Shown here in pieces: positions 5,198 to 63,125 of a stretch of 64,000 nucleotides of DNA. Both the position numbers and the translations under genes were made by a program. The notes below the pieces were generated by a model. The model saw only the letters and a list, made by a program, of their open reading frames with translations, searched no databases and was not told where the DNA came from. The number at the start of each line of letters is the position of its first letter. Position 1 is the first letter of the stretch. This stretch comes from Clostridia bacterium (GTDB lineage Bacteria > Bacillota > DTU086): assembly GCA_012523575.1 (NCBI GenBank), contig JAAYIF010000052.1:14635-78634 (forward strand), written 5' to 3'.

Positions 5198-6697
<1,500 letters not shown>

Positions 6698-8808: not shown

Positions 8809-8837
8809 TTGACAGGATAAAAGGTGAGTGTTATGTT
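8809..8837 (+). promoter_or_regulatory. Putative sigma-A-like promoter for the CorA-like gene
   Basis: TTGACA-17 nt-TATGTT. Confidence 0.3.
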
Positions 8838-8869
8838 ATGGTAAAAATATCTCAAGGGCAGGGTTTATT

Positions 8870-10234
8870 ATGGAAATTCCTAAGTTTACCTTTGCCATAA
8901 TTCCCTTCAAGTACAGCTACTCTTTTGATTCCATCGAAAAAATTGCTGCGGAAGGCGGCATATGGCAGGAAGAATGTTCTGATTACTCACGATTTTATAA
9001 ACATATTAATATCAACCTGGACAAAAGAAACCCCAACCGGAGTATTATTGAATATAAAGCTGTGCTGTCTCCGGAAAAAAGTTCTGAATTGGGTTTTTAT
9101 ATCTCTGATAAACACAAATATTTACTGACAGGCAGGAACGAAGCCGGGGAGTATTACCGTGGCACTGTATGGATTCCGGAAATAAAAATGTTTGTCTTTG
9201 ACACAAATATAGGATTTATCTCCTGTAACTTTATCTTTGAGGACAACATAGATTTTGAATCCATGTGTGAATTAATCTGTCTTATTAAAAAAATGAAGTT
9301 CCACCAGGACAATGAAAAAAATAAAACTCTTACCATGAGGCTCGAAGACCAAAGCAAGTGCATTAATCTTCTTGAAATAATTCAAAATACTCTATTGGGT
9401 GAAGGATTTAGTGTAGGTGCGGATTTGTTTTTCGACCGCAGCGATGTTAAACGCCGGGTTTCCGCAATGATGCTGAGCTCATTTCTGTTCGAGAAAGAAA
9501 TCAGTGAAAAGGAAGCTGTCATGTATCTAAGGCCGCTAAAAAGATCCCAGAACAAAACCCACGAAGTAGGTTTTTACAGGGAGGTAGATAAAGAGCGCGT
9601 TTTGCGGCCTTTTAAAAATATGTTCTGGGGATTTTCTCCCCAGGGTGTGGCCAATATCAACTATGTCGTAGAAAAAATCAGCAACGAAAAATTTATCAGA
9701 TCATTATACACCACTATTAAGAGGGAATACCTGTTCATGACCGTTTTTCTGCTAAATCAATCTTACACACTTATTGATTACTGTCACGCTTTCTCCACCG
9801 CTGCTGATAAGGCTGTTTCTCAAGAAGAGATACAGCGGATGCACAATTTTCGGCTTAAACATGTTTTTAACACCGTTTCGATCCTGGAGCATTATCGGGA
9901 ATACTATGAAAAGTTAAGGAATGCCTTGGCTATTGACAGCCTCCTTCATGAAGTGGATGAAAAGCTGGACTCCCTGTATAAGAAAAAGGAAGATCAAAGA
10001 GACGAATACCTCCGGAAAATCGAAAACAGAGTTGTAACACTTACCCTGGTTTTTACTATTCTCCTTGCAATTCTTGGAATAGTGTCCACAATGAATGCCG
10101 GGTATTATTTGTATGTGGATGTTGGCTTAAAAAATTTCCTGCTCTTATTTGTCGGCACCACTATAGCTTTAGCAGTAATTGTCTTTATAATTGTCATGAC
10201 AGTTAGAAAACTTCGCAAAACTCCTGATTTATAA
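8870..10234 (+). CDS. Hypothetical protein with CorA-like C-terminal two-TM module (divergent; 'TMN' in place of GMN)
   Basis: 455 aa from ATG 8870 (the ORF-track start at 8828 is GTG with no RBS spacing). Large soluble N-domain. C-terminus has coiled-coil–TM1(…LGIVSTMNAG)–short loop–TM2–basic tail (RKLRKTPDL), the same order as CorA (…GIYGMNF…KKKKWL). AT-rich. Confidence 0.5.
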   Translation: MEIPKFTFAIIPFKYSYSFDSIEKIAAEGGIWQEECSDYSRFYKHININLDKRNPNRSIIEYKAVLSPEKSSELGFYISDKHKYLLTGRNEAGEYYRGTVWIPEIKMFVFDTNIGFISCNFIFEDNIDFESMCELICLIKKMKFHQDNEKNKTLTMRLEDQSKCINLLEIIQNTLLGEGFSVGADLFFDRSDVKRRVSAMMLSSFLFEKEISEKEAVMYLRPLKRSQNKTHEVGFYREVDKERVLRPFKNMFWGFSPQGVANINYVVEKISNEKFIRSLYTTIKREYLFMTVFLLNQSYTLIDYCHAFSTAADKAVSQEEIQRMHNFRLKHVFNTVSILEHYREYYEKLRNALAIDSLLHEVDEKLDSLYKKKEDQRDEYLRKIENRVVTLTLVFTILLAILGIVSTMNAGYYLYVDVGLKNFLLLFVGTTIALAVIVFIIVMTVRKLRKTPDL

Positions 10235-10319
10235 AAAGAGACCCATTCCCGGTTTGGGAAAGGGTTTTTCTGAAATTGCGAAGTATTTCTTTCACTAAGA
10301 TGGTGAACAAATTTACTCT

Positions 10320-10647
10320 CCTGCTTATTTCTCCTTTTTCCCAAATAAGCAGCCTTAACATATTCTCTTTCCAGCATCTTCCACCCTTTTGTGCTTAAAA
10401 ATTTGTCCGTCTCCAGGATATGGCCACAATCTGCGTGCAGGGCCATATTGGCATTATGTTTTTTAAGAGAATAATTTCCCTTAACACGAATCTTTTCTAT
10501 TATTCCGAAAATATCCCTTACAAACAGGGGAATCATCCTCAGAGAGGCTCGTCCATCTTCAGAATCATAGGATAAAACCTCAGCGCCCTTTTCACTGCCG
10601 ATATTTGCTGCTCTCCACCCGGACAAAGTTCCCACCATCTGCCACAA
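10320..10647 (-). pseudogene. Decayed 3' fragment of a livF-like ABC ATPase gene
   Basis: Translation WQMVGTLSGW...ALHADCGHILETDKFLS...EYVKAAYLGKRRNKQ aligns with the C-terminal ~110 aa of intact LivF at 12312-13064 (WQLAGTLSGGEQQ...ALHIADWGYVLETGKIVLS...EVKAAYLGKKRQ). The Walker-B/LSGGQ region is degraded and the stop is lost. Confidence 0.55.
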
Positions 10648-10769
10648 GTACCCCTAAGCTTGTGGAAAAACACTTATATCCAAACGCTGTTTGATAGCAA
10701 AGATAGCAAAAGGCTTACATTCCTTATAGATAAGGTAAAAAAAATAGCCAGTAGCATTTTTTGAAACTG

Positions 10770-11891
10770 TCATTTTACGAATCCATATTTATTTTTTAAA
10801 TACTCTTTTCTGATATCATCTATGCTTTTTAATTTACCGTTACGAATAACGTACCAATAGTTATAACCATTAACCCTTTTAGCTCTGCCCCCTTTAGCTT
10901 TTGCTGCGCAAGAATGCATATCCATTTCTTCTCCCCTAAAAACAAGTTTTCCGTTAGCTTTCAGTCTAGCCTCCGCTGATTTATTCTTTAGAAAAAAGCT
11001 TTCTCCTTCAATGAAATAACCGTCTTGTATCATTTGTTGCATAGTTACCTTTGGAGGCTTTTCATCAAATTTTGCTTTTTCTATATCTCCTATGTGAGTG
11101 ACAGTTGATGCTAATCTTTTTTCTCCGTATTCACAATATTTTTTGTCTTTTTCAATCATAATATAGTTTCTTCCCATTCTTTTTGCGACTACACCCGTTG
11201 TCATGGTTCCAGCAAATGGATCTAAAACAAGATCTCCAACTTTTGAAGATATGGCAATAATTCTGTAAAGAAGTTCTTCCGGTTTCTGTGTGCTATGAAG
11301 TTTTTCTCCTTTATCATCTTTTAATCTCTCATTACCCTGACAAATACCTATTCTCCAAACAGAACCTAACTGCTTTCTAACACCATTTCTGTATTCTTCC
11401 TCGCTTACAGTATCCTTATTGAGTTCTTTTGCGGTTTTATAATTGAAGGTAAACTTTGATTTTTGCGACTTTGTTGCCCATATCAAGGTTTCATGACTGT
11501 TGTTTAATCTTACTCCTCTAAAGTTAGGGGTTGGATTTTTTTTATACCATATAACATCGTTAATAAGCCAAAAACCTATTCTTTGCATTATTGCTCCAAT
11601 GGTATATATACATTGCATACCTCCTATTACCCAGATAGAGCCATCCTTTTTCAAAACTCTTTTACATTCGCTGAGCCATTTTTCTGTAAAATTTTCATAA
11701 TCCTCTAATGTTGTAAACTGATTGTCCCACTCGTCAACGCAACCATCAAACTCTGTTCCTTCCACTCTATGCAAAACTCCTTCAACTCTCATCCAATAAG
11801 GAGGATCTGCGAAAATTAGATCAACACTGTCATCTGGTATTTTTTTTAATTCCACCAAAGCATCTCCATTAATAACTACATTTTTTTCCAT
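10770..11891 (-). CDS. N6-adenine DNA methyltransferase, beta class, CcrM/M.HinfI family (predicted GANTC); orphan
   Basis: 373 aa. Motif IV DLIFADPPY precedes motif I LDPFAGTMTTG. Near-colinear similarity to CcrM (KRVLKDDG(S/T)(I/L)WVIG…WxLNDIxWxKxNPxPNFxG…HETLIWA…HxTQKPE(E/A)LLYR…LDPFxGxGTTG…) including a C-terminal extension. No adjacent restriction endonuclease. Confidence 0.85.
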   Translation of the reverse strand: MEKNVVINGDALVELKKIPDDSVDLIFADPPYWMRVEGVLHRVEGTEFDGCVDEWDNQFTTLEDYENFTEKWLSECKRVLKKDGSIWVIGGMQCIYTIGAIMQRIGFWLINDVIWYKKNPTPNFRGVRLNNSHETLIWATKSQKSKFTFNYKTAKELNKDTVSEEEYRNGVRKQLGSVWRIGICQGNERLKDDKGEKLHSTQKPEELLYRIIAISSKVGDLVLDPFAGTMTTGVVAKRMGRNYIMIEKDKKYCEYGEKRLASTVTHIGDIEKAKFDEKPPKVTMQQMIQDGYFIEGESFFLKNKSAEARLKANGKLVFRGEEMDMHSCAAKAKGGRAKRVNGYNYWYVIRNGKLKSIDDIRKEYLKNKYGFVK

Positions 11892-24003: not shown

Positions 24004-24624
24004 TTACTCTTTTTGCTCTCCACCCATTTTAATCATGGAATAATCTTTTAAACAGCAGTAAAGGTGGTACACCACCAGACCCCTTGGAGAATAAATCACT
24101 CCCTGGGGATCATCTGCCGCACCTTTTATATTACAGGGACTGTAGAAGCGGCAGTATTCTTCCTTTATCATCTGGGCGTCCCTGAGCCTGTTTCTTACGG
24201 TTTCTATCTTCTCCATGCACGGGAAAAGAGCTCCTCCCTTGAGCTTCAAGCTGCACCTCACCTCTCCCTCCCCTCCGGAAATGCATTCCACAACCTTATC
24301 CAGAACAACATATCCCAATGCTCCCTGATCTTTGGAAAAGGTTTTCCTCACTTTTAGGGGCACCATTACGTATTCTGCATGGAAGGGAAGGGGAACGCAG
24401 TTTTTCTTTCCCACCACTCACCCATACCGCCGCCTCAGAGAGACGAGGTCCACTGCGAAGATTTCCGCCAGCCCCCTTAAAATGCTTTTGGTTTTTCTCA
24501 CATATGAAAGTTCCCTTCCGTCGTCCAGAAGAATTCGGGTGCAGTTTCCTCCGTTTTCGTCGTAGTATGGATAGAAACCTGCCAAACTGCGCCATATCCC
24601 GCTCAGGTCTACTTTCTTCGGCAT
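24004..24624 (-). CDS. Cys-rich ORF interrupted by an in-frame TGA (candidate selenoprotein, or a disrupted/two-part gene)
   Basis: ORFs 24418..24660 and 24004..24417 are in the same frame, separated only by TGA (plus-strand TCA at 24418-24420), and GTG follows immediately. Likely start MPKKVDL at 24624 (GGGGTG RBS). The downstream half is Cys-rich (C…C…CC). Confidence 0.35.
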
Positions 24625-24683
24625 TGTATCACCCCTTTCCCATTCTATTATAGGGAACATATGTTCGATGTCAAGGGAGCTTT

Positions 24684-25211
24684 TTAGGGATCCACCACAA
24701 AACAGCTCATCCCCATTTTTCTAAGCCTTTGGGCAAACTGCTCCGCATTCTCCCGGGAGCTGAAGGCTCCGCACTGAACCTTCCAGTATTTTTCCTCTCC
24801 GTTAAGGCCTTTTAAAATCCGGGAAAGGGGAAAATGTTTTCCTGGACATAGGGTTTTTGCCCCGGGAACCCCGTTGTGGGGCAGAACATTTTTCTCCGGA
24901 ATATTAAATTCTTTCACGAGCTTTTTAAGAAGGGAAATAAGAGCCGCAATCTGCTCTTCCGTAGGACTTCGCACCTCGAAATTTCCGATTAAAGCGATTC
25001 CTACGGATTTATGGTTCATCCCCGAAGCGCTGCAGTGGGCACCGGGAATGTCAAGGGATCTCCCCTTTACAACGGTGCCGTCCCTCACGATTATATAGTT
25101 GTATCCCACGTCCCTCCATCCTTTACTGAGATGGTATTTACGCACCTGTTTGGCGTTTTTTTCCTCCGCTCCCGTATGATGCAGTATAATGTAACTTCTA
25201 GGATATTGCAC
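24684..25211 (-). CDS. N-acetylmuramoyl-L-alanine amidase (amidase_2/PGRP) with C-terminal SPOR domain (CwlC-like)
   Basis: 175 aa, GTG start. Amidase_2 core (ILHHTG…GYNYII…HNGVPGAKTLCPG) followed by a SPOR-like tail. Confidence 0.8.
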   Translation of the reverse strand: MQYPRSYIILHHTGAEEKNAKQVRKYHLSKGWRDVGYNYIIVRDGTVVKGRSLDIPGAHCSASGMNHKSVGIALIGNFEVRSPTEEQIAALISLLKKLVKEFNIPEKNVLPHNGVPGAKTLCPGKHFPLSRILKGLNGEEKYWKVQCGAFSSRENAEQFAQRLRKMGMSCFVVDP

Positions 25212-25348
25212 GGCTTACCACCTCCCCCAGCCTTGCTATGGCTAATGTAAGCTCATCAAGTTTTTTTTCCACCCGCACCAGAAGATAAATTGCTACCACC
25301 ATGGGAAATCCGTAGTTTCCCACCTGGAGCCATAAGTTTTCCATCACC
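25199..25348 (-). CDS. YvrJ-family small protein (49 aa)
   Basis: MENLWLQVGNYGFPMVVAIYLLVRVEKKLDELTLAIARLGGGGKPCNIL. Matches the YvrJ family pattern (M..LW…GFP..V..YLL.R.E.KLD.L). Not in the ORF track (<60 aa). Confidence 0.6.
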
Positions 25349-26016: not shown

Positions 26017-26254
26017 CAGGGATTAGATTTTTAAATACAGAAGGATTTTTAAACGTACCAAAGACTAAATAGGGTCTTTTTTCCCAGTGAACCTATTTTT
26101 TAAAAATTCGAAAAAACGCACATCAAAAGGAAGCGTATAATAATAATGTAGATAACATTCCCCTGGTATGATAGAATATATAGTCGCCAGTCCTACTGTA
26201 TCAAAGGACTTGAACTCAGCGGGCTTTTAGGCACCTGATTCTGGAGGGCTTTTT

Positions 26255-27244
26255 ATGTTTGGCCATAGAACGTCAAGCACAATACCCAATGTAAAGGTTG
26301 TGGGAATAGGTAGCGGGGGAAATCTGGTAATCAATCAAATGATCTCCCAGGGCATTAAGGGCCCAGATTATATTAACCTGGATACAAATCCCCATTTCTT
26401 AAGCCTGTGCAGAGCCCAGCAAAAGCTTAAAATGTTCCATGGCGGCCTCTCCCCAACGGAAATAAGTCAAATAATGGAAGAAACAGCCAGGGAAAATAAA
26501 GAGCACTTTTCAAAAATGTTTAAGGGGGCTGACGTGGTAATAATTGTGGCAGCTCTGGGGGGAAATGTGGGAAGTTCCATAGCTCCCATAGTGGCGGAGG
26601 CGGCCATGGAAGTAGATTCTGTAACCATAGCGGCTGTCACAAAACCCCTTACCTTTGGGCTTAAGGATAGGCTTATCATGGCTGAAGAGAGAGTGGCCCA
26701 GCTTAAGGAAAGGGTGCACACCCTAATGGTTGTGCAAAACGACGTGCTTCAAGAAAAGTTGGGCAAAACTGCGGTACCTGCGGATATATTCCGCTCGGGG
26801 GATGAAATGCTCATCAGGGGTATTCAATCTATTATCCTAACGCTGATCTTTGAAGAGCACCGGAGGAGAAAAAATGCCGCAGCCATAGGGGAAATTAAAC
26901 ACTTTACCCGAAACTACAGCCCCGCTGAATTAAAAAACTTTCTCAAACAAGGCGGCACCGCAGTTATAGGAACGGGCAGCGCTTCAGGTAAAAGAAAAAC
27001 CCTGGAAGCAGCTAAAACCGCTCTTTCCCACTGTTTAACGGAACAACAGAACAGAAATGCGGAGTACGTCATACTAAACGTTACCAGGGGAAAGGAATCC
27101 CACCTTTTGGACGTAAACACCCTGCTAAAAATGGCTAGGAGGGCCTTCAGCAAAGAAGTGAAAATATTCTTTACGGATACGATTTTGGACAAAGATATGG
27201 GGGGAGAAGTAAACGTCACAGCCATTGCAGGCAAAAGGGACTAA
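26255..27244 (+). CDS. Divergent FtsZ/tubulin-like protein (degenerate GTP-binding motifs)
   Basis: 329 aa. VKVVGIGSGGNLVINQM aligns to FtsZ IKVIGVGGGGNNAVNRM. ALGGNVGSSIAPIVA aligns to GGGTGTGAAPVIA with G→N and T→V. VVQNDVLQE aligns to IPNDRLLE. No recognisable T7 'NVDFAD' loop and no C-terminal tail. Confidence 0.7.
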   Translation: MFGHRTSSTIPNVKVVGIGSGGNLVINQMISQGIKGPDYINLDTNPHFLSLCRAQQKLKMFHGGLSPTEISQIMEETARENKEHFSKMFKGADVVIIVAALGGNVGSSIAPIVAEAAMEVDSVTIAAVTKPLTFGLKDRLIMAEERVAQLKERVHTLMVVQNDVLQEKLGKTAVPADIFRSGDEMLIRGIQSIILTLIFEEHRRRKNAAAIGEIKHFTRNYSPAELKNFLKQGGTAVIGTGSASGKRKTLEAAKTALSHCLTEQQNRNAEYVILNVTRGKESHLLDVNTLLKMARRAFSKEVKIFFTDTILDKDMGGEVNVTAIAGKRD

Positions 27245-27446
27245 AAGGGTAAAGCCCTAAACGCTGCTGCGTATCCCTTCCATAAATCCTCGGGATTCCC
27301 TATTTATAACTACATATTATTGTTTACTGGTGAACAAAAATCATGTAGACTCTAAGTAAGAAAAATGTTGGAACCCGAAAGTTCCAATGGAAAATTAAAG
27401 GAGAGGTTGCGTTAAGGGCAGGTTCTCTTGAAAAGGGGGATGTACC

Positions 27447-27884
27447 ATGCTGGAACTTGAAGTCAAAATGGTCTGCCTGGACGAAAACAATCAGCATGTG
27501 GTCGTGCTCACGGATAAGGAACAGAAAATTGCCTTTCCCATATGGATCGGACTCTTTGAAGCCCAAGCCATAGCCTTAAGGCTGAAAAATGAAAAATTTC
27601 CCCGTCCCCTGACCCACGATCTGTTTATCTCGTGGTGCAAGGCGACAAACAGCACCATTGATAAGGTAGTTATTACCGACATCACTCCGGACAGCACATA
27701 TGTCGCCCAGATCCACCTGATTCACCAAAATCAGGAAAAGATTATCGATTCCAGACCCAGCGACGCCATTGCCCTTGCTTTGAGAAGCAACGCTAAAATA
27801 TATATGACCACTAAGCTCATTGAGTTTACCCATAACTTTGAAGACCTTTTTCCCGAAGGGCTTGAGCGCGGAGAAACGCACTAG
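27447..27884 (+). CDS. Bifunctional nuclease (BFN/DUF151) family protein
   Basis: 145 aa. Conserved RPLTHDL motif. Confidence 0.75.
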   Translation: MLELEVKMVCLDENNQHVVVLTDKEQKIAFPIWIGLFEAQAIALRLKNEKFPRPLTHDLFISWCKATNSTIDKVVITDITPDSTYVAQIHLIHQNQEKIIDSRPSDAIALALRSNAKIYMTTKLIEFTHNFEDLFPEGLERGETH

Positions 27885-28840: not shown

Positions 28841-28867
28841 TCTCTGCTGCAGTTTTCTCTACTTGCG

Positions 28868-29035
28868 AACTCACGCCGGACGTCTCTAAGCAAAGCGTAA
28901 TGGGCAAAACCGGGCCGCCCCAAATTCGGCGTCCATGCCTCAGGTTGGGGGCTGGCGCGAACGTCCATGCTCGCGCCCCCCGGTTTTGCCTTACGCTTTG
29001 CCAGAGCTGTTAGCCGGCGTTCGTTAAGTCGTTTC
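28868..29035. other. GC-rich ~170-nt long imperfect inverted repeat (candidate structured ncRNA or MITE-like element)
   Basis: Arms …ACGCCGG…GCAAAGCGTAATGGGCAAAACCGGG… and …CCCGGTTTTGCCTTACGCTTTGC…CCGGCGT… pair over ~55 nt around a ~50-nt core that carries its own hairpin GGCGCGA-ACGTCCATGC-TCGCGCC. GC-rich in an AT-moderate intergenic region. The overlapping ORFs are judged spurious. Confidence 0.4.
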
Positions 29036-35828: not shown

Positions 35829-36239
35829 CTAACTGCAGATTTCCTTAATGAAGACAACTATTTCTTCCGCCCATGAAACGGCTTGTTCTGCCGTTTCTGC
35901 CTCGACGAATTGATCGTCTTCGCTCTCAAAGTACTTCCCTTCCTCTGGAGAAATGTAATATTTATCAAGGTTCCTTGCGTATTCTTTTAATTTTAAGGAA
36001 AATTCAATTCCTTCTTTTCCGGCCCTGGTGATAAGCTGAAGGAGATAGGGTTCATTGCAACCATATATACCCATTCCCCTAAGCAGACCCTTTAATGCAT
36101 ATTCTGCAGCCCTTCTGGATTTATAATAGCTCCAGACATAAAAACTTTTAATTCTGTCATTTTCAGCCAATCTCAGCATTTCTTCCGCACTGCTCATCCA
36201 GCGGTCATATACATCCCTTTTAACTAAAGATATTTTCAA
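35829..36239 (-). CDS. HEPN domain protein (solitary; no adjacent nucleotidyltransferase partner)
   Basis: Start reassigned to TTG at 36239 (GGGGAGGG RBS 7 nt upstream). HEPN-like helices (…SSAEEMLRLAENDRI…RRAAEYALKGLL…). Confidence 0.6.
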   Translation of the reverse strand: MKISLVKRDVYDRWMSSAEEMLRLAENDRIKSFYVWSYYKSRRAAEYALKGLLRGMGIYGCNEPYLLQLITRAGKEGIEFSLKLKEYARNLDKYYISPEEGKYFESEDDQFVEAETAEQAVSWAEEIVVFIKEICS

Positions 36240-36552
36240 AAATTTAACCCTCCCCAATTTTTTTACAAAATTACTTCCTACGGGAAGCGAAACAGTCAAA
36301 ACACTTTTCTTACCTCAATAATACCACTAATTTTAAAAAATAAGAAATGCTTTTATAAATCGGCAAAAAAGTAAGAAAAAAAGAGAAAAAAGAGATCTGT
36401 CCCGGAAGTTTCTTGTCTAAAGCAATATATAAAACAATTCTTAATTTTGTGCTTACAGTAAATTTCTGTTAGCATATCAGCAATGATAATTATTTTCTTT
36501 TGGTATCCTGGAATACCAAAAATTTTCAAAATAAAAAAGGAGGTTTTGCTAA

Positions 36553-51890: not shown

Positions 51891-52071
51891 ATTAAACCCT
51901 CCATAAAAATTAAGCCTTCCGGACCAAAGGGTACGGAAGGCATAGCATCGACAGACCGTCTAACCTCCGTCTCGGTCCTCACAGGATCCAAGCGGAAAAA
52001 AATAGGATATTTAAATGTTAACACAGGAACGGTCCCCTGTCCATAAAAGCTCCTTTATATTTCACTCACTT

Positions 52072-60178: not shown

Positions 60179-62635
60179 TTATACCACCCTTGAAAAGGTG
60201 GTCTTTCCCGACGCAAAATTGTTGTAATGAGGAATCAGCCGTGCCACCACAACAGCTGCGTCATCGGGGAGAGAGCCTCCTGCCAGTTCCTTTGCCCTAG
60301 CCAAAAGGGCGTCCGCTATTCTCTTGGGATCTTTGGAGTTTAATCTTTTCAGTTCTTTAACCAACCAGAATTCCTTTTTTGATGATTTTCTTTTCACTTC
60401 CAAAAAACCGTCGGAAATCATTACCACAATATCCCCCGGCTCCAGGCTTAAGCTCTTTAGCTCAAAATCAACGGTATCCAAAATTCCTATGGGCAGAGAG
60501 CTTGAGGTTATTATGTCCACGCTGTTTCTTCTTTTTATGAAAGTGGGAGCTGCAGCTATCTTTAAGAAATCCGCCTGCCCTGAATAGAGATCAATCATGG
60601 CTAAATCGACGGTGGAAAAGGTTTCCTCAGGGGACCGCTGGGCCAGGGCGGCATTAACGGCTTTTAACGCCAGTTCCTGCTCAAACCCCGTTTCCAGAAG
60701 CTTTTTAAGCTGGGTAACAGTGGCGCCGCTTTCCTGCCCGGCCCTTGCCCCCGTTCCCATTCCATCGCTTAAAATAAGCGCTACCTTACCGCTGTCCAAG
60801 TGAACGCATTCAACGCTGTCCCCGGATATGACGTTTCCTTCCTTAGCCTCCAGGGCCGTACCCAGTTCCACATCGTACTGTTTTTTGGAAGCAAAGACCA
60901 TTCCGCAGTCCGTCCCGTTATTCCTTAAAGCACAGTCCACCCGAAGGGGGGACAATCTGCATCCCAGGGCTTCTTCGCACAGCGGAAGAAGATGCCTTGT
61001 ACATTCCATGCTGCCCCGGCAGGATTCCTTTACGACCTGACACTTAAATCCGCCGGGCAACCTGTAAACCGCAGCATCCTTCACCTCTATTCCGCTTCTG
61101 GCAATCATTTTTAAAAGGTTGTTTTCAATGTCCTCTTCTCTCCTTTTATTAATATCAGCCTTTGATACCAGAGCGCCGATAATTTCGGAAACACCGTAAA
61201 GCTGCGAAGCCACCAGCCCCCTGCTCTCCTTGAGCTTTTTGCGCCAGTAGCTGTTCACCTGGCAAACTTCCAGAATGCAGCCTATAGTGGCCTTTAGTTC
61301 CGTAAATCTTCCGCACCTGCGGGTAAGGATCCCCCTATAATTACCCAGCTTTTCCTCTCCATCTTCAAAAAGGGAAAAGAGTTTTAGAATTTCCCCATAG
61401 GTTCTGTAAATATCCCGCTCCCAGCAGGTCTTATACAGTGAACAGCCGTGACAGACGTTGGAAGTAATAATTTTCAGCATCAAATGGGCGTTTTCCTTGC
61501 CAACGTCCTTGATGGGGCCCTCAAAACTGGTCCTTTCAAAGGCCCTGCCCAGCTCGTTAAAAATCTGCCCCAGATCCTTTAATTTATGGAGTATCATCTC
61601 CGTTTTTATGGCACTTCTTCCATATCCGCTGCCATAGGGCACCACCCTTTTTATGCTCTCCAACCATCCTTTGGGGAAAAGGATAAAAAGCAGTACCGCC
61701 AAAGCCATTTCCCCAATCGCCCCATAAATGGCCCTTTCATCACCAAAGTACATAAGAAGAATAAAATGGGCAGAGGCAAATCCCGCCGCAGCGCCCAATT
61801 TTCCCCAGCCCTTAAAAAGCCCCGATGCCAATCCGGAAAAAGCATACAGTCCCACCATGTTGGGAGTGCCGGTTACCGTAAGGAGAGGGGCCAAACCCGT
61901 TATAACCCCCGCTGAAGCCCCTAAACCGCTTCCTCCTATGAAGCCCGCACATAAAACCATAAATCCTCCTATTATCCCTACGACATCCAGTGTGCCAATT
62001 TTCAGCCCCATAAAGCTTCCCAGCAGGGAAACCGCCAGGATCATGGCACAGACCATTTCTTCCCATGACAAGGAAGATTTCTCCTTTAAAACCCTGCTTA
62101 GGGAAGTAAAAGCCCCATAATAAGCATGGGTTAAACCTGCAGCGAAGAGCCCTTCAAAGACCAAAAGCAGAAAACCGTCAAGATGAAAGCCCTTTAATAG
62201 AAGAAAAACCCCTTTAACAGCGGCGGTAACCAAAAAGACCACCGCCGGAAGGGTATAAGTTCCCCAAAAATTCCAGCAATTAACCCATTGAAATAGGATA
62301 AAAAGCACAAAGAGGATGGTTGTAAGCTGCCAAAGCTGTGGGCCCGTTAAAGGGGCGGTAATGTAGCCCAAAGATGTGGCTAAAATAAAAGGCCCCATAA
62401 GGTTCCTGCGGTGGAAGGCTGCAGCGGTGAAAAACGCCGTTCCAAAGGGGAAGAGTTCCTGCAAAATTGCCCCCCGGGAAAGGGAAAAGCCCATAAGGAT
62501 CAGTAGTATCCCCTCAACATCAGCCTCCCGGGCTAGAAGGTCCACAAACCTATTCCAAATACCTTCCATGCCCCTTCGGCTTTTCCTAAGGGGATATTTT
62601 TTGTTATAAGGATAAATATGAATGCCATTGTACAT
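60179..62635 (-). CDS. spoIIE: Stage II sporulation protein E (PP2C phosphatase)
   Basis: Start set at MYNGIH (AGGTG RBS). Alternative GTG at 62644. ~10 N-terminal TM segments plus C-terminal PP2C domain. Conserved position upstream of tilS–ftsH. Confidence 0.9.
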   Translation of the reverse strand: MYNGIHIYPYNKKYPLRKSRRGMEGIWNRFVDLLAREADVEGILLILMGFSLSRGAILQELFPFGTAFFTAAAFHRRNLMGPFILATSLGYITAPLTGPQLWQLTTILFVLFILFQWVNCWNFWGTYTLPAVVFLVTAAVKGVFLLLKGFHLDGFLLLVFEGLFAAGLTHAYYGAFTSLSRVLKEKSSLSWEEMVCAMILAVSLLGSFMGLKIGTLDVVGIIGGFMVLCAGFIGGSGLGASAGVITGLAPLLTVTGTPNMVGLYAFSGLASGLFKGWGKLGAAAGFASAHFILLMYFGDERAIYGAIGEMALAVLLFILFPKGWLESIKRVVPYGSGYGRSAIKTEMILHKLKDLGQIFNELGRAFERTSFEGPIKDVGKENAHLMLKIITSNVCHGCSLYKTCWERDIYRTYGEILKLFSLFEDGEEKLGNYRGILTRRCGRFTELKATIGCILEVCQVNSYWRKKLKESRGLVASQLYGVSEIIGALVSKADINKRREEDIENNLLKMIARSGIEVKDAAVYRLPGGFKCQVVKESCRGSMECTRHLLPLCEEALGCRLSPLRVDCALRNNGTDCGMVFASKKQYDVELGTALEAKEGNVISGDSVECVHLDSGKVALILSDGMGTGARAGQESGATVTQLKKLLETGFEQELALKAVNAALAQRSPEETFSTVDLAMIDLYSGQADFLKIAAAPTFIKRRNSVDIITSSSLPIGILDTVDFELKSLSLEPGDIVVMISDGFLEVKRKSSKKEFWLVKELKRLNSKDPKRIADALLARAKELAGGSLPDDAAVVVARLIPHYNNFASGKTTFSRVV

Positions 62636-62844
62636 CTCCAACACCTACCCTTTCTTGATTACCCCCATTTGATTACCCTCAATTATAGTACGGGGCACCA
62701 AGATAATTTGTCAGGTTCAGTGGGGTAGGGTGGTTTTTTTTTCGACAAAAGGATAAGTGTGGATGAAACCCCATGGGTTTTCCTTGGGGACGAAGAAGTC
62801 GGCTCCAAGACAAAAAGTTAAACTTAAGAAAATTTTTTTAATAA

Positions 62845-62879: not shown

Positions 62880-62954
62880 TGGTGACCCGTAGGGGATTCG
62901 AACCCCTGTTACCGGCGTGAAAGGCCGGTGTCTTAACCACTTGACCAACGGGCC
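62880..62954 (-). tRNA. tRNA-Glu (UUC)
   Basis: Minus strand: GGCCCGTTGGTCAAGTGGTTAAGACACCGGCCTTTCACGCCGGTAACAGGGGTTCGAATCCCCTACGGGTCACCA. Anticodon loop CTTTCAC. CCA encoded. Confidence 0.9.
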
Positions 62955-62966
62955 GGAAACAAAACT

Positions 62967-63043
62967 TGGTAGCGGTGGTAGGACTCGAACCTACGACACT
63001 ACGGGTATGAACCGTATGCTCTAACCACCTGAGCTACACCGCC
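62967..63043 (-). tRNA. tRNA-Met (CAU, elongator type)
   Basis: Minus strand: GGCGGTGTAGCTCAGGTGGTTAGAGCATACGGTTCATACCCGTAG…CCACCGCTACCA. Close to B. subtilis elongator tRNA-Met. Could alternatively be Ile2 (lysidine), but the acceptor and anticodon stems match Met. Confidence 0.8.
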
Positions 63044-63050
63044 ACTTAAT

Positions 63051-63125
<75 letters not shown>

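What the first reader, a model, noticed from the sequence alone, without database searches (positions are those of the whole stretch)
26255..27244. Degenerate FtsZ/tubulin-like paralog
The protein is clearly homologous to the FtsZ GTPase domain, but the tubulin signature GGGTGTG is ALGGNVGSS, the T7 synergy loop (NVDFAD) is unrecognisable, and there is no C-terminal linker or tail. The canonical ftsZ would lie in a dcw cluster elsewhere. This extra copy may be a non-hydrolysing or regulatory FtsZ-like protein, possibly sporulation-linked given the neighbouring genes and a BFN nuclease downstream.
Basis: partly seen in the sequence, partly recalled or inferred. Interest (0 to 1): 0.55.

Follow-up and report, generated by a model that had tools for sequence, protein, structure and literature searches.

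The report
Catalytically degenerate, tail-less FtsZ paralog
This gene encodes an extra copy of the bacterial cell-division protein FtsZ that keeps the fold but has lost almost every residue needed to hydrolyse GTP and to bind membrane anchors; it occurs only in a small clade of uncultured spore-forming Firmicutes and is probably a regulator, not a division motor.

Summary
ORF 26255-27244 (+), 329 aa, is a full-length FtsZ core: Pfam Tubulin + FtsZ_C, PDB FtsZ E~1e-43, AF2 model TM 0.80-0.87 to B. subtilis and M. tuberculosis FtsZ. It scores 157 bits against the ftsZ equivalog model, whose cut-off is 295.

Of 68 columns that are >=90% conserved in 157 canonical FtsZs, 34 are changed, mostly in loops T1-T5 and T7. 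GGGTGTG is GGNVGSS and NTDxQ is DTNxH. A 16-residue insertion precedes T7, where NxDFxD is NYSPAE. There is no linker or C-terminal peptide.

It is not a decaying pseudogene. dN/dS is 0.12-0.16, and ten replaced residues are fixed in four lineages that are only 52% identical.

The family is very small: one 50%-identity cluster among 1.84 billion representatives. The gene sits in a conserved block (DUF1659 operon | BFN-TenA-PBP1A), and more distant relatives have the same block without it. It has its own conserved sigma-A-like promoter. The proposed sporulation and BFN links are therefore only positional.

Best reading, which is inferred: a GTPase-dead pseudo-FtsZ that modulates or caps the host's canonical FtsZ. 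I could not check whether the same genome also holds a canonical ftsZ. This is a new variant of a known kind, of moderate interest.

The parts
26255..27244 (+). CDS of the FtsZ-like paralog (329 aa): FtsZ GTPase domain plus FtsZ C-terminal domain, with no linker or tail
26149..26177 (+). Promoter-like site TAGATA-17 nt-TAGAAT with TG at -15/-14 (extended -10). The block GTATGATAGAATATATA is invariant in lineages down to 73% protein identity
26243..26248 (+). Ribosome-binding site GGAGGG, 6 nt before the ATG
26303..26329 (+). T1 loop and start of H1, residues 17-25: GIGSGGNLV where canonical FtsZ has G(V/I)GGGG(x)NA. G20S and N24L; S20 is fixed in the family
26381..26395 (+). T2 loop, residues 43-47: D-T-N-P-H where canonical FtsZ has N-T-D-x-Q (SaFtsZ N44, D46, Q48)
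26435..26476 (+). T3 loop, residues 61-74: FHGGLSPTEISQIM where canonical FtsZ has G..GLGAG..P..G. It is not conserved even within the family
26552..26578 (+). T4 tubulin signature region, residues 100-108: A-L-G-G-N-V-G-S-S where canonical FtsZ has G-M-G-G-G-T-G-T-G. V105 and S108 are fixed in all four lineages
26645..26662 (+). T5 region, residues 131-136: P-L-T-F-G-L where canonical FtsZ has P-F-x-F-E-G
26861..26908 (+). Family-specific 16-residue insertion (residues 203-218) between helix H7 and the T7 loop. It has low model confidence and is the fastest-evolving segment
26912..26929 (+). T7 loop remnant, residues 220-225: N-Y-S-P-A-E where canonical FtsZ has N-x-D-F-x-D. The catalytic Asp (SaFtsZ D210) is Ser, Cys or Asn in the family, and D213 is Glu
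27447..27884 (+). Downstream neighbour: bifunctional-nuclease (BFN) domain protein, adjacent in all four lineages. It is ancestral to the site and has its own promoter-like block (TTTACT 27323-27328, TAGACT 27346-27351). No functional link is shown

Best explanation
The gene encodes a lineage-restricted pseudo-FtsZ, and selection maintains it. Shown: it has the complete FtsZ core fold. It has lost the residues that bind the gamma-phosphate, Mg2+ and K+ and that position the catalytic water, both on its own nucleotide face (T1-T5) and on the T7 face it would present to a neighbouring subunit. It lacks the linker and the C-terminal peptide that tether FtsZ to FtsA, SepF and other partners. It is under purifying selection. 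It was inserted into an older gene block in a small clade of uncultured, SpoIIE-encoding Firmicutes, and it has its own housekeeping-type promoter. Inferred: it cannot run the GTP-driven head-to-tail assembly cycle by itself. It most likely acts through heterotypic contact with the host's canonical FtsZ, as a non-hydrolysing, non-anchorable subunit that caps, poisons or stabilises protofilaments. That would make it a built-in modulator of Z-ring assembly. The remodelled pocket loops T1, T2, T4 and T5 are the most invariant part of the family. The T7, H8, S9 and H10 face is variable and carries the insertion. This suggests that any docking uses the nucleotide-side face and that the opposite face is a dead end.
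For: Fold and family. Motif loss was measured against 157 canonical FtsZ sequences. Of 68 columns that are >=90% conserved, 34 are changed, mostly in T1, T2, T3, T4, T5 and T7. Similarity to the canonical consensus is lowest in the longitudinal-interface elements: T3 0.16, H6-H7 loop 0.19, T7 0.21, H8 0.03, S9 0.19, H10 0.23. It is about 0.5 in the core strands. In SaFtsZ the single mutations D46A, D210N and D213N each abolish assembly, and Q48A cuts GTPase about six-fold (PMC8936486). Here the equivalent positions are N, S/C/N, E and H/Y. The gene is functional: dN/dS is 0.12-0.16 overall, and ten replaced residues (S20, V25, D43, N45, S66, A100, V105, S108, L132, E225) are identical in four lineages down to 52% identity. 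No tail. Narrow distribution: one 50%-identity cluster among 1.84 billion representatives, then a drop from 612 to 200 bits; only three relatives among 5.8 billion clusters; only two loci in JGI metagenome contigs. Insertion into an older block: L010 has DUF1659 and BFN adjacent, and L008/L009 also lack the gene. Own promoter. Precedent for a tail-less FtsZ paralog that cannot polymerise alone but co-polymerises with the main FtsZ: A. tumefaciens FtsZ1 (10.1101/412759).
Against: No interaction with canonical FtsZ was tested, and none could be tested here. Both longitudinal faces have diverged, so the protein may not bind FtsZ at all. In SaFtsZ, changes such as D46A abolish assembly outright; they do not produce a capper. 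I did not confirm that a canonical FtsZ exists in the same genome. The in-family conservation pattern rests on only four sequences. The strict conservation of the altered pocket could instead mean a new ligand and a function unrelated to division.
Confidence: 0.5

Rival explanations
1. It is an autonomous, non-dynamic scaffold or ligand sensor. The remodelled pocket binds a different ligand, or binds nucleotide without turnover. The protein works without touching canonical FtsZ, either as a stable filament or as a soluble adaptor, for a clade-specific task.
For: The altered T1, T2, T4 and T5 loops are the most invariant part of the family (in-family invariance 0.67-0.77), as expected for a pocket that is still used. 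The base-contacting residues N162, F179 and D183 are kept, as is R139. Both canonical longitudinal interfaces have diverged. The thaumarchaeal FtsZ homolog with a degenerate signature does not polymerise and is not the division protein (PMC3684127).
Against: No conserved partner genes point to a separate machine. The only invariant neighbour, BFN, predates the gene at this site. T3 and the T7 face vary within the family, which argues against a conserved homopolymer interface.
Confidence: 0.27
2. It is a decaying duplicate: a non-functional relic of an ftsZ duplication on its way to becoming a pseudogene.
For: It has lost nearly all catalytic motifs and the tail. It evolves as fast as an average protein: 52% identity where BFN is 88%. 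PGAP names the ortholog 'hypothetical protein'.
Against: The reading frame is intact and nearly the same length in four lineages. dN/dS is 0.12-0.16, with dS up to 1.4. Replaced residues are fixed across the family. The promoter and RBS are conserved. The AF2 fold is confident.
Confidence: 0.05
3. It is the organism's only, highly derived, division FtsZ.
For: No other ftsZ is in the 64-kb window, and the rest of the genome could not be searched.
Against: It has no C-terminal peptide for FtsA or SepF, no dcw context, and catalytic residues replaced. Relatives with the same gene block lack it at this locus. It evolves far faster than its BFN neighbour. The window encodes SpoIIE, and FtsZ is reported as universal in Firmicutes (PMC8136486).
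Confidence: 0.03
4. It is a mobile-element tubulin (TubZ- or PhuZ-like) used for plasmid or phage DNA positioning.
For: FtsZ/tubulin homologs on plasmids and phages are often very divergent. One relative (L002) has a type I restriction-modification system a few kb upstream.
Against: The context is chromosomal and syntenic, with no phage or plasmid genes. There are no relatives in IMG/VR. Phage records give only generic FtsZ-level hits of about 30%. The PDB sequence search returns only FtsZ chains. GC and GC3 match the neighbours. There are no PADLOC hits.
Confidence: 0.02

Closest known systems
Canonical bacterial FtsZ (TIGR00065; e.g. B. subtilis, M. tuberculosis and S. aureus FtsZ structures)
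   Same: It has the same two-domain core fold over residues 12-326, with 28-37% identity and TM 0.80-0.87. It keeps structural glycines and alanines, the base-contacting N162, F179 and D183, R139 (SaFtsZ R143) and the T7 Asn.
   Different: It scores half the equivalog cut-off. T1-T5 and T7 residues for phosphate, Mg2+, K+ and the catalytic water are replaced. It has a 16-residue insertion before T7, no linker or C-terminal peptide, and no dcw context, and it evolves fast.
Tail-less alphaproteobacterial FtsZ paralogs (A. tumefaciens FtsZ1, R. meliloti second FtsZ, M. gryphiswaldense FtsZm)
   Same: These are extra FtsZ copies truncated right after the core, found alongside a full-length FtsZ. 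A. tumefaciens FtsZ1 cannot polymerise alone but co-polymerises with the main FtsZ and is dispensable (10.1101/412759). This is the closest model for how the protein might work.
   Different: In that paper FtsZ1 and FtsZ_AT co-polymers hydrolyse GTP at rates similar to FtsZ_AT alone. The present family has lost the catalytic residues on both faces and carries a T7-proximal insertion. It is in a different phylum and arose independently.
Thaumarchaeal FtsZ homolog (Nitrosopumilus maritimus Nmar_1262)
   Same: It is an FtsZ-family protein whose GTP-binding signature is degenerate (AGKAGSA). It does not form polymers, and it is not the division protein (PMC3684127).
   Different: It is archaeal and the only FtsZ homolog in a Cdv-dividing organism. 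Its substitutions are different, and no T7 insertion is reported.
FtsZ-derived or FtsZ-targeting inhibitors: plant ARC3 (FtsZ-like domain without GTPase motifs), B. subtilis MciZ (FtsZ:MciZ complex 4U39), SulA
   Same: These are functional analogies only. They are proteins that bind FtsZ subunit interfaces and block or cap assembly. ARC3 is itself a degenerate FtsZ homolog (from my own knowledge). MciZ is a sporulation-specific capper, and its complex with FtsZ is among the fold matches.
   Different: There is no sequence relationship to MciZ or SulA. ARC3 is eukaryotic and fused to a MORN domain. Inhibitory activity is not shown for the present protein.
FtsZl1 / FtsZl2 (Makarova & Koonin 2010, PMC2875224)
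   Same: They are divergent members of the FtsZ-tubulin superfamily that coexist with a conventional FtsZ and are thought not to act directly in division.
   Different: FtsZl1 lacks recognisable T6-H7 elements and an FtsZ-type C-terminal domain, and it sits in vWA operons. FtsZl2 keeps all the motifs and has a C-terminal extension of about 300 aa. The present protein has clear T6-H7 and FtsZ_C, no extension and no vWA neighbours.

Membership tests
FtsZ/tubulin superfamily | Tubulin/FtsZ GTPase-domain fold followed by the FtsZ-type C-terminal domain | tested here: met
   Pfam PF00091 at 69 bits (cut-off 33) and PF12327 at 55 bits (cut-off 27). AF2 model TM 0.80-0.87 to FtsZ crystal structures.
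Canonical FtsZ (TIGR00065 equivalog) | Score at or above the curated equivalog cut-off | tested here: not met
   157.3 bits against a cut-off of 295.2. PGAP names the ortholog HBT20632.1 'hypothetical protein'.
Canonical FtsZ (TIGR00065 equivalog) | Tubulin signature GGGTG(T/S)G in loop T4 | tested here: not met
   The motif is GGNVGSS (GGSVGSS in two lineages). The canonical G, T and G at these columns are 99-100% conserved in 157 FtsZs.
Canonical FtsZ (TIGR00065 equivalog) | T7 synergy loop N-x-D-F-x-D with both catalytic Asp residues | tested here: not met
   The loop is N-Y-S-P-A-E. The first Asp is S, S, C or N in the four lineages, and the second is E in all four. A 16-residue insertion lies directly upstream.
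Canonical FtsZ (TIGR00065 equivalog) | Disordered linker plus conserved C-terminal peptide (D-I-P-x-F-L-R type) for FtsA, SepF and other partners | tested here: not met
   The protein ends at residue 329, three residues past the core. Aligned canonical FtsZs continue with a linker and the PAFLR motif.
Canonical FtsZ (TIGR00065 equivalog) | dcw-cluster context (ftsA-ftsZ) | tested here: not met
   Its neighbours are the DUF1659/DUF2922/YvrJ/amidase genes and BFN/TenA/PBP1A in all lineages. For contrast, the canonical FtsZ P0015 sits after murD-ftsQ-ftsA.
Paralog status (a second copy beside a canonical ftsZ) | A TIGR00065-level ftsZ elsewhere in the same genome | not testable with these tools
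   No other ftsZ is in the window or the fetched loci. Only indirect support is available.
FtsZl1 (Makarova & Koonin) | No recognisable T6-H7 or FtsZ-type C-terminal domain; coiled-coil C-terminus; vWA-domain operon partners | tested here: not met
   T6-H7 aligns (N162, F179, D183 kept), FtsZ_C is detected, and there is no vWA gene nearby.
FtsZl2 (Makarova & Koonin) | All GTPase motifs intact plus a C-terminal alpha/beta extension of about 300 aa; proteobacterial | tested here: not met
   The motifs are degenerate, there is no extension, and the context is Firmicute.
TubZ / PhuZ (plasmid and phage tubulins) | Closer to TubZ/PhuZ than to FtsZ; mobile-element context | tested here: not met
   All 49 PDB sequence hits at E<=1e-3 are FtsZ. 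The gene sits in a chromosomal syntenic block. There are no IMG/VR relatives.

The most novel reading that the evidence does not exclude
A bacterium uses a catalytically dead copy of its own division protein as a built-in regulator. The pseudo-FtsZ would dock on canonical FtsZ protofilaments through its conserved, remodelled nucleotide-side face. It would present a dead, insertion-blocked T7 face and so cap or poison Z-ring assembly. That would be a self-derived counterpart of MciZ, SulA or plant ARC3, in a spore-forming Firmicute clade that lacks MciZ.
Probability: 0.3. Interest if true: 0.65.

Novelty: new variant of a known kind. Interest (0 to 1): 0.42.

Why it matters
Extra FtsZ copies are known, and a few degenerate homologs are known in Thaumarchaeota and in plant ARC3. 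I found no description of a bacterial FtsZ paralog that keeps the whole fold under purifying selection while replacing nearly every catalytic and interface-metal residue on both faces. No curated family model covers it: NCBIfam gives only a sub-threshold ftsZ hit. If it binds canonical FtsZ, it would be a natural capper or poison subunit. That would be useful for studying filament polarity and treadmilling, and it would be an example of a pseudoenzyme evolving from a cytoskeletal GTPase. The limits are that the family is tiny and is known only from uncultured organisms, and that its function is inferred.

Tried and rejected
1. Finding the canonical ftsZ of the same organism.
- tblastn of a canonical FtsZ against the window and all loci found only the paralog.
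- The best canonical hit, P0015, is an unrelated organism's dcw-cluster FtsZ.
- The window's own protein is not on record as a called product.
- The window's NCBI contig could not be retrieved through its BFN protein; only short Logan contigs came back.

2. Origin of the paralog.
- In an NJ tree with 157 canonical FtsZs the family is one long branch with no sister group. Mean distance to canonical FtsZ is 0.71, against 0.47 among canonical sequences.
- The ten hits I looked up that carry a name come from scattered phyla: Patescibacteria, an actinobacterial family (Ilumatobacteraceae) and WOR-3.
- The origin is therefore unresolved.

3. More family members.
- The metagenome scan recovered only the two known variants.
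- The viral scan found none.
- Phage GenBank records gave only generic FtsZ hits of about 30%.

4. A defence-system role. There were no PADLOC hits for the protein, BFN or the conserved 211-aa neighbour.

5. Sporulation-sigma promoters. By eye, the conserved upstream block fits an extended -10 sigma-A promoter. It does not fit the sigma-E, -F, -G or -K consensus sequences as I recall them. This is weak evidence.

6. Literature.
- Searches for Firmicute FtsZ paralogs found no description of this family.
- The search for '41_269' was uninformative.

Full report
**1. Observation**

The ORF at 26255-27244 (+) is real. It is 329 aa with an ATG start, preceded by GGAGGG.
- It matches Pfam Tubulin (7.4e-19) and FtsZ_C (9.4e-15).
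- It matches the NCBIfam ftsZ equivalog TIGR00065 at 157.3 bits. That is about half the 295.2-bit cut-off.
- Forty-nine distinct PDB sequences match at E <= 1e-3, and all are FtsZ. The best E-value is 9e-44, and the alignment covers residues 12-326.
- An AlphaFold2 model built on a 13-sequence alignment has mean pLDDT 81 and pTM 0.84. Only residues 1-7 and 201-210 are poorly defined.
- Its best Foldseek matches are B. subtilis and M. tuberculosis FtsZ, with TM 0.80-0.87.

The protein is therefore a complete FtsZ core.

**2. Extent of the degeneracy**

I aligned the protein and its relatives with 157 canonical FtsZ representatives. Sixty-eight columns are >=90% conserved in canonical FtsZ. Thirty-four of them are kept in all four family members and 34 are changed. 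Most of the changes fall in the nucleotide and interface loops:

| Element | Canonical FtsZ | This protein |
|---|---|---|
| T1 / H1 | GGGG..N | G20S, N24L, A25V |
| T2 | N-T-D-x-Q | D-T-N-P-H |
| T3 | GLGAG | GLSPT |
| T4 | GGGTGTG | GGNVGSS |
| T5 | F..EG | F132L, E135G, G136L |
| T7 | N-x-D-F-x-D | N-Y-S-P-A-E, after a 16-residue insertion (residues 203-218) |

Ruiz et al. 2022 (PMC8936486) name N44, D46, Q48, G72, R143, N208, D210 and D213 of S. aureus FtsZ as the residues that hold Mg2+, K+ and the catalytic water.
- D46A, R143Q, N208L, D210N and D213N each abolish assembly.
- Q48A lowers GTPase activity about six-fold.
- Mapping by motif, only the R143 and N208 equivalents (R139 and N220) survive here.
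- N25, which hydrogen-bonds the nucleotide, is Leu or Val.

The protein stops three residues after the core, so the linker and the C-terminal peptide are absent. The one correction is that the T7 loop is displaced and mutated but still recognisable.

**3. The gene is not a relic**

I found four lineages:
- the window;
- an 87%-identical version (P0001; loci L002-L005);
- a 73%-identical version (P0002, the same sequence as KUK10440.1 of 'Clostridia bacterium 41_269' and HBT20632.1 of a 'Peptococcaceae bacterium'; locus L001);
- a 52%-identical, 341-aa version found only through its neighbour (L006:4761-5786).

Pairwise dN/dS among the three closest lineages is 0.12-0.16, with dS up to 1.4. Only the T7-proximal insertion region is relaxed.

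Ten of the replaced canonical residues are identical in all four lineages: S20, V25, D43, N45, S66, A100, V105, S108, L132 and E225. The pocket has been remodelled and then held, not eroded.

Region by region:
- Resemblance to the canonical consensus is lowest in the longitudinal-contact elements defined by Ruiz et al.: T3 0.16, H6-H7 loop 0.19, T7 0.21, H8 0.03, S9 0.19, H10 0.23. It is about 0.5 in the core strands.
- Within the family, T1, T2, T4 and T5 are the most invariant segments (0.67-0.77). T3, T7, H8 and H10 vary (0.19-0.35).

**4. Distribution and origin**

- A full HMMER pass over 1.84 billion cluster representatives found one cluster for this family (612 bits). The score then drops to 200 bits for a tandem canonical FtsZ and to 170 bits or less for ordinary FtsZs.
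- The scan of JGI metagenome contigs recovered only two known variants.
- The viral-contig scan found none.
- In an NJ tree the four sequences form one long branch with no sister group.
- The ten hits I looked up that carry a name come from unrelated phyla. I cannot say which FtsZ the paralog came from.
- GC and GC3 match the neighbouring genes.

**5. Context**

In the window, L001 and L002 the layout is: S41 protease, a conserved gene of about 211 aa, an Amidase_2-SPOR amidase, YvrJ, DUF2922 and DUF1659 on one strand; then FtsZ-like, BFN, TenA and PBP1A diverging on the other strand.
- L006 has two extra genes before the FtsZ-like gene.
- A relative whose BFN is 61% identical (L010) has the same block with DUF1659 and BFN adjacent and no FtsZ-like gene.
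- Relatives with BFN at 74% identity (L008, L009) also lack it.

The gene is therefore an insertion into an older neighbourhood, in a narrow clade. Its adjacency to BFN and to the DUF1659 operon is explained by a single insertion event. DUF1659 is statistically linked to endospore formers (PMC2955703), but this adjacency is not evidence of a functional link.

A block, GTATGATAGAATATATA, is invariant upstream in the window, L002-L005 and L001. It reads as TAGATA-17-TG-n-TAGAAT, a sigma-A-type extended -10 promoter. BFN has its own conserved promoter-like block.

The window is a typical Firmicute chromosomal region of housekeeping genes: spoIIE, tilS, ftsH, folP/folK, panC, birA, coaX, dusB, greA and lysS. 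The full-length SpoIIE marks the host as a likely spore former.

**6. Is it a paralog?**

I could not search the rest of the genome. No second ftsZ lies in the window or in the fetched loci. The case is indirect but strong:
- there is no C-terminal peptide and no dcw context;
- the protein is only 52% identical between lineages whose BFN is 88% identical, which is as low as PBP1A (53%);
- the gene is absent from syntenic relatives;
- the window encodes SpoIIE, which binds FtsZ in B. subtilis (from my own knowledge);
- FtsZ is reported as universal and single-copy in Firmicutes (PMC8136486).

**7. Mechanism**

Shown: the fold, the loss of catalytic and metal-binding residues on both faces, the loss of the tail, purifying selection, the gene's own promoter, and the narrow distribution.

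Inferred: the protein cannot run GTP-dependent head-to-tail assembly by itself. It most likely works by contacting canonical FtsZ as a non-hydrolysing, non-anchorable subunit.

The closest experimental precedent is A. tumefaciens FtsZ1. It is tail-less, cannot polymerise alone and co-polymerises with the main FtsZ (10.1101/412759).

The nucleotide-side loops are conserved and the T7 face is variable and carries the insertion. That pattern fits a subunit that can dock by one face and then end the filament. From my own knowledge, Du et al. 2018 reported that FtsZ mutants with a dead bottom face are potent cappers.

The main rival is an autonomous role with a new ligand in the remodelled pocket. 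The thaumarchaeal FtsZ homolog with a degenerate signature, which does not polymerise (PMC3684127), shows that such proteins need not act on a Z-ring. I give the FtsZ-modulator reading about 0.5, the autonomous reading about 0.27, and the relic, sole-FtsZ and mobile-element readings 0.05 or less each.

**8. Comparison and novelty**

[quoted passage not shown] It fails every defining test for a canonical FtsZ: score, signature, T7, tail and context. It is not FtsZl1 or FtsZl2 (PMC2875224), and it is not TubZ- or PhuZ-like. No NCBIfam model covers it, and literature searches found no description of it. I rate it a new variant of a known kind. Interest is moderate, because the family is tiny, uncultured and functionally untested.

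Noticed in passing
window 24004-24660 (-): A conserved gene with no Pfam or PADLOC hit (211-218 aa and intact in L001 and L002) is split in the window by an in-frame TGA at 24418-24420. The window reads GGG TGA GTG where the relatives read GG(G/A) AGC ATA (Ser-Ile). It could be a pseudogene, a split gene or an assembly error.
   Followed up: partly
window 28867-29026 (-): A TwoAYGGAY RNA (Rfam RF01731, 67.8 bits against a gathering score of 43) lies in the TenA-PBP1A spacer. No Rfam match was found anywhere in L001, L002, L006 or L010. The spacer is about 290 nt longer in the window than in L002. L001 and L006 carry a radical-SAM/SPASM gene at this position instead.
   Followed up: partly
window 26255-27244 versus public records: The window's BFN protein is identical to NCBI NLO90136.1, which is on an 80.7-kb MAG contig. 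The adjacent FtsZ-like product is not on record as a called protein; only a 232-aa partial from a JGI contig matches at 100%. The MAG annotation may have used another start, skipped the gene or flagged it as a pseudogene.
   Followed up: partly
window 60179-62644 (-), with 37934-59559: Full-length SpoIIE (SpoIIE_N plus a PP2C domain), three tRNAs (62883-63125) and a block of conserved housekeeping genes: tilS, ftsH, ndk, folP, folK, panC, birA, coaX, dusB, greA and lysS. This marks the host as a probable endospore-forming Firmicute.
   Followed up: partly
window 25198-25344 (-): A 48-aa YvrJ-like ORF (MENLWLQVGNYGFPMVVAIYLL...) overlaps the start of the amidase gene. It is too short for the ORF list. 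It completes the DUF1659-DUF2922-YvrJ-amidase operon seen in the relatives.
   Followed up: partly
L006:3122-4607: In the deepest-branching lineage, two extra genes sit between the DUF1659 operon and the FtsZ-like gene: a Cons_hypoth698 membrane protein and a 109-aa predicted membrane protein. The FtsZ-like protein there keeps a 13-residue tail (LVESSPAPKNRHLFP) that the other three lineages lack.
   Followed up: no
window 8828-11891: A low-GC segment (0.357 at 10-12 kb) holds an N6/N4 DNA methylase with a RAMA domain (10770-11891, -). Next to it is a 468-aa ORF (8828-10234, +) with no Pfam hit. This is possibly a restriction-modification or mobile island.
   Followed up: no
window 6586-6697 (-) and 51963-52043 (-): A SAM riboswitch (97 bits) lies 5' of a Cys/Met PLP-enzyme gene (5198-6481). 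A 'pan' motif (40.6 bits, just above its gathering score) lies 5' of the DUF2520/panC genes.
   Followed up: no
window 35829-36299 (-): A stand-alone HEPN-domain protein, possibly half of a HEPN-MNT toxin-antitoxin pair, lies between the flavodiiron-type gene and the peroxiredoxin gene.
   Followed up: no
window 27368-27387: A perfect 8-bp palindromic hairpin (TTGGAACccgaaaGTTCCAA) lies in the BFN 5' region, downstream of the conserved promoter-like block. It is partly conserved in L002 and degraded in L001. It has no T-run on the + strand, so it is probably not a terminator for the FtsZ-like gene.
   Followed up: no
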